Below, piece after piece: positions 58,556 to 62,533 of a stretch of DNA of 64,000 bases. Source of the DNA: the human T2T-CHM13v2.0 reference genome, Homo sapiens; NCBI RefSeq assembly GCF_009914755.1, contig NC_060927.1; one strand, given 5' to 3'. Position 1 is the first letter of the stretch. The number at the start of each line of letters is the position of its first letter. The position numbers were made by a program, and so were the translations under genes. A model generated the notes under the pieces. That model was not told the origin of the DNA and did not search any database. It worked only from the letters and a program-made list of their open reading frames with translations.

Positions 58556-59029
58556 TAAATAGTGCCAGGCCCCATCTATTTATTTTGAGTGGAGAATGCC
58601 AGCACTGTAGTCTCACAGTTTTAGATCACTCAGAGATAAAGGTGTATCAAGGTCTGGGACACTAGATGGCCTCAGGGAGTTACATGATCTGTCTGCTTTC
58701 TCAAGGTCAGAGGGCCACTGGGGGACATCGTGGGGCCACATGGGGGGGTCACTCAGGGTCAGTGGGCACTCAGTAGGATCTTTGGTCTCCCAAGGCCAGG
58801 AGATTCCTGGATCACTCTAGGGCCACTTTGAGTTACCCAGGTGATCCCACAGTCCTTCTTAATGGCTTCCATAGACAGTAATTAGCAGGTGGCATACTTA
58901 TTGGTGGCAAAGCACATCATGTGCCCAAGCAGCTCAGCTGCCTGCTGCTCCAGGGCCTGCAGGGTGGCTGCCTTCTTGCCCAGTGCCTGTGCATTCTGTG
59001 TCAGGCGGCACTCCAACCCTGGGGTCAGG

Positions 59030-59275
59030 TCATCTGAGCCAGGCTCTGACCCCTGGCTCTAACCTCTGATCCTGGTCCCAGTCTCTATCACAACCCTGAC
59101 CCTGACCCAGCCCTAACCTTAAATAAACCCTGAACCTAATCAACACTTGATCCCTGGTCTAAACCTTGACCCTAGCCCTGATCCCTACATGAGTCAAGAT
59201 CTGATCTGGACCCAGCCTTAACCCTTCCACAACATCCCTATTCTGGCCCTGACCTTTCCATCTGACCCTAAGCCG
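59030..59275. repeat. Degenerate (TRACCC)n telomere-like hexamer tract
   Basis: Recurrent tgaccc/taaccc/tagccc/tgatcc units at 6-7 nt spacing. Confidence 0.65.
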
Positions 59276-60540
59276 TTCCCTGTGCCTGCCCTATTGCAGG
59301 CCAGCCATGCACCATGCAGGCAGCTGAAGCTGCTTTATGCCTTCTTCAGGAGCTCCTGGGCCTCAGCTCAAGCCTGCTGCACCCATTCTTTTGCATCCTG
59401 CACAGTGGCTACCAGGCCATATGTGTCCTCCTGCAGCTCGGCCACAGCCAAAGGGGCCACCTACAACTCCTAGGGCAGGGCTGGACCTGAATCCCCACCC
59501 CACCCAGAATATATTGCCTCAAATATATTACTGCCTAAGGTTCCTGGAGAAAAGGAGAATTTAGAACTGAGATCCCGCCTCAGTCCAGTATAGCCCAGCC
59601 CCAGCCCAAACCCCACTTTCCACTGTTCCAGAGGGGTCCCTGAGACCCCAGTGCCCACTCTTCCCCATTTCATCTTGCCCAGGCCCTCAGCCCTGCCTAC
59701 GACTCATGCTGCCCATTCTTCTGCCTCCTGGGCCTGCTGCTGACTCAGGACAAAACATGCCCTGAGCACCTTAGCTACACTGGACAGACGCCCTGGGACT
59801 GGGGTCACCTCAACTGCCAGTGCCATCTGGGCCAGGCGCCCTACTACCTGGGGCAAAGGTTAGGGGGTCACAGAGAGGACACAGCACAGTAGCAACTAGG
59901 CTGAGTGTTATCACGGTCAAGGTACTTGGTAGCACTGTGGTATCATAGTGAGTCAAGGATCTCAGGGAGAATGGAAATCACAGCAGTCATTGAACAAGGG
60001 ATGTAAAGGAGCTGAGGGTACAAGTAGGGTATCACCTCCTGTACAGTGCCCTCCAGGCCTTCAAGTGCCAGCTTCACTTCCTGTAGCCCTTGCTCTGCGG
60101 CCCCTGCATGAGTTCCATTCCCCCCTCAGCCAGCACCCCCTGAACATCCAGTGCTTGGTGCTGGGCCCAGGTTGTACCCTCCTTGAAGAACACAGGTGTT
60201 CAGTTAGGCATCCCTTTTCTGGCCACCCTCTGACTTCCACCTCCAGCCTCCTGGCCCTTCACCTGGTTCACTCTGCCTGATGGAGGATGCCTTCAGCTTT
60301 GGGCAGCTTCTGGCCCATGGCATCCGGTACAGGGAGAGCACCCTGGATCTGACCCAGCAGAAGAGCAATGCCTACTGCCCCCACCTTGGGGAAGGGGCAC
60401 TGACAGCCAGCTCCACACTTGTGGTGTCCACACCTTTGTCTGTGGGGAAGAGGGTAGGGATCTTAGGCCTGAACCCTGAACTCTGAGCCAACAAACCCTG
60501 ACCCTAGCCTCTCACTGATCCTGCCTTAGACACAACTATC

Positions 60541-61649
60541 CAGTGGTGTGCTGGAGGCTTACAAGAGGCAATTGTTGGCCGGGCGCAGTGGCTCACGCCT
60601 GTAATCCCAGCACTTTGGGAGGCCGAAGCAGGCAGATTGCCTGAGCTCAGGAGTTCCAGACCAGCCTGAGCAACACGGTGAAAACCCATCTCTACTAAAA
60701 TACAAAAAATTAGCCAGGCATGGTGGCATGTGCCTGTACTCCCAGCTACTCAGGAGGCTGAGGCAGGAGAATTGCTTGAACCCGGGAGGCGGAGCTTGCA
60801 GTGAGCCAAGATCACACCACTGCACTCTAGCCTGGGTGACAGAGCGAGACTCTGTCTCTAAAAAAAATAAAAAATAAAATGATAATAAAAAAAGGGTAAT
60901 CCCAGCACTTTGGGAGGCCAAGGCAGGCAGATTACAAGGTCAGGAGTTTGAGACCAGCCTGGCCAATGTAGTGAAAACTCATCTCTACTAAAAATAACAA
61001 AAATTAGCTGGATGTGGTGGCGGGTGCCTGTAATCCCAGCTACTCAGAAGGCTGAGGCAGGAGAATCGCTTGAACCCAGGAGGTGGCGGTTGTGGTGAGC
61101 CGAGATCACGCCACTGCACTCCAGCCTGGGTGACAGAGCGAGACTCTCCCTCTCAAAAATAATAATAATAATACTAAAATAAAAAGAGCCAATTGTTAAA
61201 TTTTCAGGAATTTTGCAAATAAGTTGTCAAATGGTATGGACTGAAATCAATCATGATAGCATTACTTACATCATGGATATTGACAAATGCTAAAAATCAG
61301 TTTCCCCTGACTCACAGCCAGTTGTTAAAAATTTATCTACACACATGGCCAGATGCGGTGGCTCACGCCTGTAATCCCAGCACTTTGGGAGGCGAAGGCG
61401 GGTGGATCATGAGGTCAGGAGTTCAAGACCAGCCTGGCCAAGATGGTGAAACCCCGTCTCTACTAAAAATACAAAAAAAAATTACAGTGTGCCTGTAATC
61501 CCAGCTACTTGGGAGGCTGAGGTGGGAGAATCGCTTGAACCCGGGGGGCGCAGGTTGCAGTGAGCCGAGATTGCACCACTGCACTCCAGCCTGGGTGACA
61601 GAGCAAGACTCCCTCTCAAAAAAAAAAAAAAAATTTACGCACACACTAG
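60541..61649. mobile_element. MER63-like hAT DNA transposon interrupted by Alus (60577-60890, 60896-61180, 61347-61632)
   Basis: Begins CAGTGGTGTGCTGG, continues gagccaattgttaaattttcaggaattttgc after the Alus, decayed terminus near 61649; Alu TSD aagag(g/c)caattgtt at 60563 and 61184. Confidence 0.7.
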
Positions 61650-62533
61650 TGTTCCCACTTGACCCCTGGTCAGCCCTGATGAATATTCCTCATTCTGGAA
61701 GGAGTATCATGATAGTGTCCTGCATACCCTATTAACCCTGCCCTTGGCTGTGAACAGACATGCAACAAGCAGATATGTACCCATGAGGAAGCGCTGGATG
61801 ATCTGCACGGCTGCTTGCATGTGGGTCATGGCAGTCATGCCCCAAGGTCCCCTTTCCCAATACCATGTCTCCTGTGCCTGGATTCCTGTGGAGCTTGCTA
61901 TGGCCTGGATTTGCTGCAGCTGGTGGGCGTGGGTCAGATGTGGAATATGTTGCCTACAACACCATGTCCAAGCCATGGTTTCCTGTGACTCCCCCATGGC
62001 TCCCACCCACAGTCCCCCTGGCTGTGTACCTGTTGTTGATGCTGCTCCAAGGCTGTGACTCTATGTCCAGGCTATGGGAGGAGTTGTGGAAGGCAACAAG
62101 AGCCCACTGAACAGTGGGCAGGGTCCCAGGTTGGAGGGAGCAGCCTGTGCCTGCTACAGTACCCAATCTAGGACCTGCAGGTGTCCACCCTGGCCCCTAA
62201 CACCCCCACCAGGCATCCCCTAGCATAGGGTGGCCACCTCTTGGGCCACAGCTTCCAGCTGCAGTGGGAGCAGAGCCAGGAGTTGGTCTCAGAAGGTGAA
62301 GCAGGTGGGACAGGAGGTGCAGTGTGGGAAGGCACCTCTGGAGCCATGAGCACATGCCTGGCACCTCAGCCCTAAGATGCCCTCTCTGAAGAAGCAGGTG
62401 CCCATGTGTGAATCACAGCTGGGCAAGATGGAGCCCTGTGGGTCACAGGCACAGGCTGCAGAGGAGAGATAGGGTCAGGGTAGAGAGCAGATGACACTAG
62501 CTCTAGCCTTACCTTCGAGAGACCTGAAGGATG

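What the first reader, a model, noticed from the sequence alone, without database searches (positions are those of the whole stretch)
58882..62455. Fossil of an additional, anciently diverged laminin beta-chain gene directly upstream of LAMB2
Seen: minus-strand translation of sequence the ORF track does not explain gives laminin-beta exons in the correct order and phases. From 62455: CACDPQGSILPSCDSHMGTCFFREGILGLRCQACAHGSRGAFPHCTSCPTCFTF*DQ, versus LAMB2 exon 24 [57 protein letters not shown]. From 60439: KGVDTTSVE versus EGADPDSIE. 59847-59674: ..AEEWAA*VVGRA versus [12 protein letters not shown]. 59469-59313: ..A*AEAQELLKKA* versus [13 protein letters not shown]. Most stops are single transitions (from CGA, CAG, CAA or TGG codons). 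Protein divergence from LAMB2 is far greater than these few lesions imply. Known: a LAMB2-like pseudogene (LAMB2P1/LAMB2L) lies further upstream, and fish have a lamb2l gene. Inference: this is the probably unannotated coiled-coil half of a long-functional fifth beta chain, lost in this lineage as a unitary pseudogene.
Basis: partly seen in the sequence, partly recalled or inferred. Interest (0 to 1): 0.9.

Follow-up and report, generated by a model that had tools for sequence, protein, structure and literature searches.

The report
Dead laminin beta gene beside LAMB2
Just upstream of human LAMB2 lies the broken tail end of a fifth laminin beta-chain gene (LAMB2L) that looks intact in fish, birds, marsupials, bats and deer but is dead in humans, and it is the same dead gene as the annotated fragment LAMB2P1.

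Summary
Window 58882-62455 (minus strand) holds eight laminin-beta exon remnants in the right order, with mostly intact splice sites and the natural stop codon. Against human LAMB2 only the first exon is significant (E 3e-13). Against a bat 'laminin beta-2-like' protein all eight are significant (E 1e-14 to 2e-48, 58-82% identity).

They are not a separate gene. With DNA fetched beyond the window, one colinear exon series runs from about 85050 to 58882 (26 kb). The RefSeq pseudogene LAMB2P1 covers only exons 7-11 of it.

The fossil is 70% identical to bat LAMB2L and 37.5% to human LAMB2. In trees it nests inside placental LAMB2L, within a clade spanning teleosts to mammals. Grouping it with LAMB2 is rejected (AU p 9e-75).

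Lesions across the whole fossil: at least 14 stops, at least 23 frameshifts, a deletion of about 180 codons and two splice-site changes. It has also changed 19% of residues that are otherwise invariant in the clade.

This is an ordinary kind of feature. It is moderately interesting because reviews say lamb2l has no mammalian orthologue.

The parts
62130..62455 (-). Exon remnant e24: last laminin EGF-like (LE) repeat plus the start of the coiled coil. It faces bat LAMB2L aa 1214-~1320 and LAMB2 coding exon 24. It has three in-frame stops (TGA 62291-62289, TAG 62222-62220, TAG 62156-62154). One of the repeat's conserved Cys, present in the bat, deer and tenrec orthologues, is changed to Phe. The AG acceptor is intact.
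   Evidence: Pfam EGF_laminin 30.2 bits (cutoff 21) on the 61-aa open part
62128..62142 (-). Junction of a deletion. About 180 codons are absent (bat aa ~1320-1503: end of exon 24-like, exons 25-26-like and start of 27-like, including the Cys-rich loop in the coiled coil), together with their introns.
   Evidence: The missing 194-aa segments of two orthologues (bat and deer) find nothing in window 57200-88000 (best E 0.53, wrong strand)
62030..62127 (-). Exon remnant e27a (bat aa 1504-1536). It has a 1-bp deletion near 62061. A GT donor follows.
61920..62029 (-). Short GT...AG intron (110 bp) that splits what is a single exon (27) in LAMB2. The protein alignment is continuous across it.
   Evidence: that it is an intron in the orthologues is inferred
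61781..61919 (-). Exon remnant e27b (bat aa 1537-1582). 46 codons with no lesion; AG and GT intact.
   Evidence: (E 3e-16)
60263..60439 (-). Exon remnant e28 (bat aa 1583-1645; LAMB2 exon 28). It has two frameshifts (a deletion of about 14 nt near 60405-60412 and an extra G near 60382) and the stop TGA 60270-60268. AG and GT are intact. It overlaps the RefSeq 'silencer' 60320-60614.
60036..60182 (-). Exon remnant e29 (bat aa 1645-1692). AA stands where the AG acceptor is expected. About 5 extra nt near 60124-60119 shift the frame. The GT donor is intact.
   Evidence: the acceptor change is inferred from exon phase
59674..59847 (-). Exon remnant e30 (bat aa 1693-1750). It has the stop TGA 59706-59704. 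AT stands where the GT donor is expected.
   Evidence: (E 3e-16)
59313..59469 (-). Exon remnant e31 (bat aa 1751-1803). It has three stops (TAG 59463, TGA 59370, TAA 59337). AG and GT are intact.
   Evidence: (E 9.5e-14)
58882..59018 (-). Last exon remnant e32 (bat aa 1803-1846). It is an open frame ending ...YATC plus the natural stop TAA 58884-58882. The C-terminal Cys of laminin beta chains is kept.
   Evidence: (E 1.1e-14, 73% identity)
58579..58584 (-). AATAAA about 300 nt after the stop: a candidate ancestral polyadenylation signal. It lies inside the RefSeq cis-regulatory region 58574-58787.
   Evidence: function inferred only
62456..64000 (-). In-window part of the intron between exon remnants e23 and e24, mostly Alu-like repeats. 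The fossil gene continues BEYOND the window end, in loci L002-L004. Exon remnants e23 (window-equivalent 64248-64153) back to e2 (85050-84888) cover bat aa 43-1213: the LN domain, LE repeats and laminin IV type B domain. RefSeq LAMB2P1 (76928-78470) covers only e7-e11 (78361-77177). Exon 1 and the promoter were not found.

Best explanation
Window 58882-62455 is the 3' (coiled-coil) end of a single, unprocessed, roughly 26-kb unitary pseudogene on the minus strand. This is the human remnant of LAMB2L ('laminin beta-2-like'). RefSeq annotates only its exon 7-11 portion, as LAMB2P1.

The ancestral gene encoded a full laminin beta chain: LN domain, 13 LE repeats, IV-type-B domain, and a coiled coil with a terminal Cys. 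It sat head-to-tail upstream of LAMB2. As a lineage it is separate from LAMB1 and LAMB2 and older than the fish-tetrapod split. It still looks intact and constrained in teleosts, amphibians, sauropsids, monotremes, marsupials and some placentals (bats, deer, tenrec).

In the human lineage it lost constraint long ago. My rough estimate is 50-90 million years; this is inferred, not shown. It then accumulated stops, frameshifts, splice-site changes and a deletion of about 180 codons. It now makes no laminin chain. Any present activity would be as DNA or RNA only.
For: SHOWN
1. Colinear exon series. LAMB2 and bat P0004 align exon by exon, each exon once and in order, from 85050 to 58885 on the minus strand. 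LAMB2P1's span equals e7-e11.
2. Orthologues. The 61-aa open part of e24 finds 5 proteins at E <= 0.001 among 6 candidates, at 73-81% identity, named 'laminin subunit beta-2(-like)'. The coil of P0004 finds 15 proteins among 8000 candidates scored. The N-terminal part finds 1742 at E <= 1e-30 (best 120 listed); the list holds monotreme, marsupial, sauropsid, amphibian, coelacanth and teleost proteins, of which a selection was placed in the LAMB2L clade by the trees (point 4).
3. Identity. The fossil is 69.9% identical to the bat protein (1021/1460), 65% to deer and tenrec, 54% to Tasmanian devil, 48% to platypus and 42% to chicken. It is 37.5% identical to human LAMB2 and 37.4% and 40.7% to the stretches taken as LAMB1 and LAMB4.
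4. Trees. The LAMB2L clade has SH-aLRT 100 and mirrors vertebrate phylogeny. The fossil sits inside placentals (99-100). LAMB1+LAMB2 form their own clade (100). The AU test rejects fossil+LAMB2 (delta lnL 1098, p 9e-75).
5. Synteny. The fused models P0018 (Polypterus) and P0025 (Chaetura) consist of a LAMB2L half followed by a LAMB2 half. Passages and a figure legend of PMC9504374 report lamb2l and lamb2 in tandem with [19 protein letters not shown] in teleosts.
6. Decay. 1478 aligned codons carry 14 stops and 23 frameshifts by local alignment. One more stop and one more frameshift were seen. There are two splice-site changes and one large deletion.
7. Loss of constraint. At columns invariant in the other 26 clade members the fossil differs at 35 of 181 (7 of 47 Cys). 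Seven intact mammalian orthologues differ at 0-7 of 210-217.
8. No second copy. A search of the whole human assembly with P0004 returned only this locus plus paralogues at lower identity (a stricter first look was used, so this is a floor).
9. Domain content of the intact orthologue: Laminin_N, 13 EGF_laminin, LAMININ_IV_B. Best solved relatives are laminin beta-1 and beta-2 fragments.

INFERRED: the time of death, the ancestral heterotrimer function, and the polyA signal.
Against: - No other primate, rodent or mammalian genome could be read, so shared lesions, the lineage in which the gene died, and true 'unitary' status across primates are untested.
- The absence of primate, rodent and carnivore proteins is weak evidence. 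The searches are word-based, the lists are capped, and pseudogenes are not in protein sets.
- The orthologues are computational gene models. Several are partial or flagged LOW QUALITY (Rhynchocyon, Molossus; Bos 1349 aa, hippo 1444 aa, shrew 1080 aa), so the gene may also be decaying in some of those lineages.
- Synteny rests on two fused gene models and on passages of one paper, not on inspected genomes.
- Exon 1 and the promoter were not found (score 39, noise level).
- Human LAMB1, LAMB3 and LAMB4 rows in the trees are partial projections of tblastn matches (1500, 451 and 994 residues). I named them from recalled chromosome positions.
- The trees are 'quick' LG+G4 searches with SH-aLRT support only.
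- RefSeq calls LAMB2P1 transcribed and marks a silencer over e28, so an RNA or regulatory role is not excluded.
- I could not see the GENCODE/Ensembl annotation, which may already cover these exons.
Confidence: 0.92

Rival explanations
1. A decayed recent duplicate of LAMB2 (a duplicated, non-unitary pseudogene), as the name 'LAMB2 pseudogene 1' suggests.
For: It lies 1.7 kb upstream of LAMB2 on the same strand with matching exon phases. Its name and its position in tandem also point this way.
Against: Identity to human LAMB2 is 37.5% against 70% to bat LAMB2L. The AU test rejects a clade with LAMB2 (p 9e-75). The clade holding the fossil includes fish, amphibian and bird proteins. There are far too few frame-breaking lesions for that much protein divergence to be neutral decay of a LAMB2 copy (14-15 stops in 1478 codons).
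Confidence: 0.01
2. A second, separate laminin-beta fossil, distinct from LAMB2P1 (two dead genes upstream of LAMB2).
For: 13 kb and many Alu elements separate the annotated LAMB2P1 from the window's exons.
Against: Each exon of the bat protein is matched once, in order. e7-e11 lie under LAMB2P1, e12-e23 lie between 75935 and 64153, and e24-e32 lie in the window. There are no duplicated exons and no second N-terminal set.
Confidence: 0.03
3. The remnants are now working parts of something else: exons of a non-coding RNA, or regulatory DNA of the LAMB2 promoter. Their preservation would then be functional. This does not exclude the pseudogene origin.
For: RefSeq marks a silencer at 60320-60614 (over e28) and a cis-regulatory region at 58574-58787. 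It also calls LAMB2P1 'transcribed' (hub annotation). Five of the eight exon remnants have both flanking splice dinucleotides intact, and e32 keeps its AG acceptor.
Against: Residues that are otherwise invariant in the clade have changed at a rate fitting neutral drift (35/181). No expression or conservation data could be examined here. Intact splice dinucleotides are expected to survive by chance in many sites over this time.
Confidence: 0.1
4. Chance similarity of GC-rich, Cys- or Ala/Gln/Leu-rich frames to laminin.
For: Against LAMB2 alone the coiled-coil pieces are not significant (E about 1).
Against: E-values are 1e-14 to 2e-48 against three orthologues, in strict order, with correct phases and splice sites. 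All HSPs at E <= 0.01 lie on one strand.
Confidence: 0.005

Closest known systems
LAMB2P1 / LAMB2L (human transcribed unprocessed pseudogene, RefSeq; Durkin et al. 1999, recalled, not read here)
   Same: It is the same fossil gene, on the same strand and in the same exon series. LAMB2P1 at 76928-78470 equals exon remnants e7-e11.
   Different: The RefSeq record covers about 1.5 kb. The fossil runs about 26 kb to 58882 and includes 21 further exon remnants, eight of them in this window. The name implies a LAMB2 copy, whereas the trees show a separate, ancient beta lineage.
Vertebrate lamb2l / 'laminin subunit beta-2-like' genes (zebrafish lamb2l; NCBI models in bats, deer, tenrec, marsupials, platypus, birds, frogs)
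   Same: It belongs to the same orthologous clade (SH-aLRT 100), with the same domain order and terminal Cys. The position is the same tandem one before lamb2, as reported for teleosts and indicated by fused models.
   Different: Those genes look intact and constrained: they change 0-3% of invariant columns against 19% in the human fossil. A review read in passages (PMC7364686) states that lamb2l has no mammalian orthologue, which these data contradict.
LAMB2 (human, same window, 45186-57187)
   Same: The exon phases and boundaries are the same for exons 24 and 28-32. It is the same protein family.
   Different: Identity is only 37.5%, and 29-31% in the coil between LAMB2 and the bat LAMB2L protein. 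LAMB2's exon 27 is split by an extra intron in the fossil. LAMB2 groups with LAMB1, not with the fossil.
Classical human unitary pseudogenes (e.g. GULOP; recalled)
   Same: It is an unprocessed remnant at the ancestral locus, with no functional copy in the genome and intact orthologues elsewhere.
   Different: None in kind. This one concerns a structural basement-membrane subunit family thought to have four beta members in mammals.

Membership tests
Laminin beta chain (ancestral product) | Laminin EGF-like (LE) repeats with the 8-Cys pattern | tested here: met
   Pfam EGF_laminin scores 30.2 bits (cutoff 21) on window 62290-62474(-). One of the repeat's conserved Cys is changed to Phe relative to the bat, deer and tenrec orthologues. 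Further LE remnants lie outside the window.
Laminin beta chain (ancestral product) | N-terminal LN domain and laminin IV type B domain | tested here: met
   Remnants e2-e7 and e14b-e17 (outside the window) align to the parts of P0004 that Pfam calls Laminin_N (70-296) and LAMININ_IV_B (661-840).
Laminin beta chain (ancestral product) | C-terminal coiled coil ending in a conserved Cys next to the stop | tested here: met
   e32 reads ...KYATC then TAA. Bat, deer and tenrec end ...YATC, and LAMB2 ends ...NTCQ. The disulfide role of this Cys is recalled, not tested.
Laminin beta chain (ancestral product) | Cys-rich loop (beta-knob) interrupting the coiled coil | tested here: not met
   This part (bat aa ~1320-1503) is deleted in the human fossil. 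It is present in the intact orthologues.
LAMB2L orthologous group | Groups with beta-2-like proteins to the exclusion of LAMB1, LAMB2 and LAMB4 | tested here: met
   Clade support is 100, and the fossil sits inside placentals at 99-100. The alternative with LAMB2 is rejected.
Unitary (unprocessed) pseudogene | Disabling lesions in a gene that keeps its introns | tested here: met
   At least 14 stops, at least 23 frameshifts, two splice-site changes and one deletion of about 180 codons. Introns are retained throughout.
Unitary (unprocessed) pseudogene | No intact copy elsewhere in the same genome | tested here: met
   The whole-assembly search with P0004 gave 30 matches: this locus, LAMB2 in the window, and more distant stretches on five other chromosomes, which I take from recalled positions to be LAMB1, LAMB4, LAMB3, netrin genes and USH2A. 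The tool used a stricter first look, so this is not exhaustive.
Unitary (unprocessed) pseudogene | Intact orthologue at the syntenic place in other species | tested here: inconclusive
   Intact-looking orthologues: yes. Synteny: only indirect, from the fused LAMB2L+LAMB2 models in Polypterus and Chaetura and teleost tandem order in PMC9504374 passages. No mammalian genome was inspected.
Duplicated pseudogene of LAMB2 | Nests within (mammalian) LAMB2 | tested here: not met
   AU p 9e-75; 37.5% identity to LAMB2.

The most novel reading that the evidence does not exclude
LAMB2L is a true fifth laminin beta chain of jawed vertebrates. It is not a LAMB2 copy.

Its lineage is at least as old as the LAMB1/LAMB2 split. 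The two head-to-tail pairs LAMB2L-LAMB2 (chromosome 3) and LAMB4-LAMB1 (chromosome 7) may descend from one ancestral tandem pair that was doubled in the early vertebrate genome duplications. That would make LAMB2L the sister of LAMB4.

It is still under constraint in monotremes, marsupials, bats, ruminants and afrotherians, but it died early in the lineage leading to humans (and possibly rodents). If so, laminin biology built on human and mouse has overlooked one beta subunit and the heterotrimers it forms.
Probability: 0.45. Interest if true: 0.6.

Novelty: new member of a known kind. Interest (0 to 1): 0.42.

Why it matters
**Annotation.** RefSeq shows a 1.5-kb 'LAMB2 pseudogene 1'. The real object is a near-complete 26-kb gene fossil that ends 1.7 kb from the LAMB2 promoter. 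Its exon remnants underlie at least one RefSeq 'silencer'.

**Nomenclature and evolution.** It is not a copy of LAMB2. It is the human remnant of a separate beta chain that most vertebrates, and several mammalian orders, appear to keep. This contradicts the statement, repeated in a zebrafish review (PMC7364686, passage read), that lamb2l has no mammalian orthologue.

**Practical use.**
- It tells zebrafish workers that lamb2l phenotypes have no human counterpart gene.
- It points to bats, ruminants and marsupials as places to look for laminin trimers containing this chain.
- It offers a datable gene loss for primate and placental phylogeny.

It does not change what is known about human LAMB2 disease.

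Tried and rejected
- **Literature.** Five searches found no paper that describes the 3' exons, the full extent of the fossil or its unitary status. The terms were: LAMB2P1/LAMB2L/'laminin beta 2-like' (24 papers, listing only plus passages of three); LAMB2+'unprocessed pseudogene'+laminin (0 papers); laminin+'unitary pseudogene' (8 papers, listing only, none on this gene by title); LAMB4+LAMB1+tandem+'whole genome duplication' (0 papers); and 'LAMB2-like' variants (5 papers, irrelevant). PMC5352804 and PMC2139873 held nothing relevant. Durkin 1999 and Sztal 2011 were not available to read and are cited from recall or second hand.
- **Exon 1 and promoter.** Only a noise-level match was found (score 39).
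- **Exons 25-26.** Local alignments scored 28 and 37 (noise). A wider search found nothing. I read this as a deletion.
- **Apparent match at 62196-62130.** An apparent second-frame match to the Cys-rich loop overlaps the better frame-2 match of e24. I judged it spurious before 62127.
- **Rooting.** Adding 20 unnamed 50%-cluster representatives did not clarify the root. Long-branched rows joined next to LAMB1+LAMB2, so the deep order of LAMB4, LAMB2L and LAMB1/2 stays open. The AU test does not reject LAMB2L+LAMB4 (p 0.51).
- **First projection.** The first tblastn projection of the fossil ran through introns. I replaced it with frameshift-aware exon alignments.
- **Timeout.** One MAFFT run timed out and was repeated with a faster setting.
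- **Not attempted.** No structure or complex prediction was run, because none would change the verdict.

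
Full report
**1. Observation**

I built LAMB2 (1798 aa) from the annotated coding parts and ran tblastn against window 57200-64000.
- The exon starting at 62455 matched LAMB2 aa 1136-1218, the last LE repeat and the start of the coiled coil. 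Identity was 41% over 83 aa, E 3.2e-13, with one stop.
- The coiled-coil pieces were not significant against LAMB2. The last exon gave 40% over 30 aa, E 1.0.

**2. It is one gene, and it includes LAMB2P1**

The human assembly is held as G000. I fetched window-equivalent 64001-88000.
- LAMB2 gives a strictly colinear minus-strand series: aa 133-237 at 83296-82822; aa 239-506 at 78358-77177, which is the span of RefSeq LAMB2P1 (76928-78470); aa 785-1026 at 68768-67600; aa 1067-1142 at 66340-64150; aa 1136-1218 at 62474-62226.
- Each part occurs once.
- The window's exons are therefore the 3' end of the same fossil as LAMB2P1.

**3. Orthologues**

- The open 61-aa part of the first exon found 5 proteins at E <= 0.001 among 6 candidates, at 73-81% identity. 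They include 'laminin subunit beta-2 [Rhinolophus sinicus]' (P0004, 1846 aa) and 'laminin subunit beta-2-like [Rhynchocyon petersi]'.
- The coil of P0004 found 15 proteins among the 8000 candidates scored: four bat species, fallow and red deer, cattle, hippopotamus, two tenrecs, an elephant shrew, two unnamed sources, and a lamprey gamma chain at E 4.5e-4.
- Residues 60-900 found 1742 proteins at E <= 1e-30, of which the best 120 were listed. They add shrew, marsupials, platypus, alligator, birds, lizards, turtles, frogs, caecilians, coelacanth and many teleosts, some named 'Laminin, beta 2-like'.
- No primate, rodent or carnivore protein appeared. This is weak evidence of absence only.

**4. 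Anatomy in the window**

With P0004, the deer P0009 and the tenrec P0010 as guides, every exon remnant is significant. Frameshift-aware alignments and boundary checks give the following.

| Remnant | Coordinates | Lesions and splice sites |
|---|---|---|
| e24 | 62455-62130 | three stops |
| deletion junction | 62142-62128 | removes bat aa ~1320-1503 |
| e27a | 62127-62030 | 1-bp deletion |
| intron | 62029-61920 | 110-bp GT-AG intron, absent from LAMB2 |
| e27b | 61919-61781 | clean |
| e28 | 60439-60263 | two frameshifts, one stop |
| e29 | 60182-60036 | AA where the AG acceptor is expected; about 5 extra nt |
| e30 | 59847-59674 | one stop; AT where the GT donor is expected |
| e31 | 59469-59313 | three stops |
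| e32 | 59018-58882 | open; ends ...YATC plus natural TAA |

- The deleted segments of two orthologues (bat and deer) find nothing anywhere in 57200-88000 (best E 0.53).
- An AATAAA lies at 58584.
- Outside the window, e2-e23 are all found. Exon 1 is not.

**5. Ancient lineage, not a LAMB2 copy**

- The fossil is 69.9% identical to the bat protein (1021/1460). It is 37.5% identical to human LAMB2, and 37.4% and 40.7% to the stretches I take to be LAMB1 and LAMB4.
- Bat LAMB2L is 46.4% identical to human LAMB2 overall (797/1719) and 29-31% in the coil.
- I fetched the human LAMB1, LAMB4 and LAMB3 loci. Their places came and their names from recalled chromosome positions. I projected them onto LAMB2.
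- Five over-long gene models split into two halves each.
- In a 41-row tree (IQ-TREE quick, LG+G4, 1825 columns), 28 rows form a LAMB2L clade (SH-aLRT 100) that mirrors vertebrate phylogeny. The order runs from teleosts and bichir through coelacanth, amphibians and sauropsids to platypus, marsupials, tenrec, then the human fossil with bats and deer.
- LAMB1 and LAMB2 are sisters (100). LAMB4 lies outside.
- The bichir and swift models are LAMB2L followed by LAMB2. The pigeon, godwit and whitefish models are LAMB4 followed by LAMB1.
- A 61-row tree that adds 20 unnamed representatives keeps the LAMB2L clade (100) and the fossil's place (99).
- The AU test rejects fossil+LAMB2 (delta lnL 1098, p 9e-75). 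It does not reject LAMB2L+LAMB4 (delta lnL 0.68, p 0.51).

**6. Decay and constraint**

- Over 1478 aligned codons (1025 identical) the local alignments hold 14 stops, 23 frameshifts and 24 in-frame gap positions. In the window there are 457 codons (307 identical), 7 stops and 3 frameshifts.
- One further stop (59463) and one further frameshift (in the 5' part of e28) were trimmed by the local alignment but were seen.
- At columns invariant in the other 26 clade members, the fossil differs at 35 of 181, including 7 of 47 Cys. Bat, deer, tenrec, leaf-nosed bat, devil, wallaby and platypus differ at 0-7 of 210-217, with Cys losses of 0 except 2 in deer.
- So the human copy drifts while the others are constrained.
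- Age estimate (inference only, using recalled figures): about three quarters of random base changes alter the residue. On that basis 19% replacement implies roughly 0.09-0.1 substitutions per site. That is close to the whole neutral divergence of the human lineage since the early placental radiation, which I recall as about 0.1-0.13. I therefore put the loss at roughly 50-90 million years ago.

**7. Family features**

- The intact orthologue has Laminin_N, 13 EGF_laminin repeats and LAMININ_IV_B.
- Its best solved relatives are fragments of laminin beta-1 (4aqs, 8dmk) and beta-2 (5lf2).
- The fossil's first in-window exon still passes Pfam's EGF_laminin cutoff.

**8. Literature**

- Five searches found no description of these exons.
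- PMC9504374 (passages and figure legend) reports lamb2l and lamb2 in tandem in teleosts and attributes the extra copies to the teleost duplication. The tree here does not fit that for lamb2l.
- PMC7364686 (passage) states, citing Sztal et al. 2011, that lamb2l has no mammalian orthologue.
- From recall, not read here: Durkin et al. 1999 described LAMB2L as similar to LAMB2 exons 8-12. That equals e7-e11 if a non-coding first exon is counted.
- I could not see GENCODE/Ensembl annotation or supplements that might already list the full extent.

**9. Verdict**

The correction is that this is the tail of LAMB2P1/LAMB2L rather than another gene. It is an ordinary kind of object (a unitary pseudogene). 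It has moderate interest for laminin evolution and for annotation.

Noticed in passing
window 45186-64000 with loci L002-L004 (chromosome 3), and loci L005-L024 (chromosome 7): There are two parallel head-to-tail pairs. The LAMB2L fossil lies directly upstream of LAMB2 on chromosome 3. On chromosome 7, the stretches I take to be LAMB4 lie upstream of those I take to be LAMB1, on the same strand (one search places; names recalled). Fused gene models in other species repeat both pairings. This suggests one ancestral tandem pair doubled by genome duplication. The tree puts LAMB4 outside, but an AU test does not reject LAMB2L+LAMB4 (p 0.51).
   Followed up: partly
trees: The stem branches of therian and placental LAMB2L are long (0.30-0.35 and 0.25-0.29 changes per column), against 0.05-0.17 for most terminal branches. 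The gene sped up in early mammals well before it died in the human lineage. Several placental models are short or flagged low quality (Bos 1349 aa, hippo 1444, shrew 1080, elephant shrew).
   Followed up: no
window 61920-62029 (-): The fossil has a 110-bp GT-AG intron where LAMB2 has an uninterrupted exon 27. This is an intron gain or loss between the two beta lineages.
   Followed up: partly
window 60320-60614 and 58574-58787: The RefSeq 'silencer' overlaps fossil exon e28. The RefSeq cis-regulatory region overlaps the fossil's presumed 3' UTR with its AATAAA (58584). Dead-gene sequence may have been reused for LAMB2 regulation, or the assays may simply have hit it.
   Followed up: no
proteins P0001 and P0005 (unnamed sources): These are two short open frames from small contigs of unnamed origin. 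They read through this same exon at 78-79% identity and keep Trp where human has TGA 62291. P0001 also carries upstream residues resembling the human intron translation. They look like unspliced genomic reads of a mammal's LAMB2L. I did not trace their origin.
   Followed up: no
L003, window-equivalent 74986-75066: LAMB2L proteins carry about 60 extra residues in the laminin IV type B region relative to LAMB2 (bat aa ~591-659). The human fossil keeps a separate remnant for part of this (aa 601-627).
   Followed up: no
window 60569-61661 and 62528-63719: Clusters of Alu-like repeats fill the fossil's introns between e27b and e28 and upstream of e24. They account for most of the sequence between the exon remnants.
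   Followed up: no
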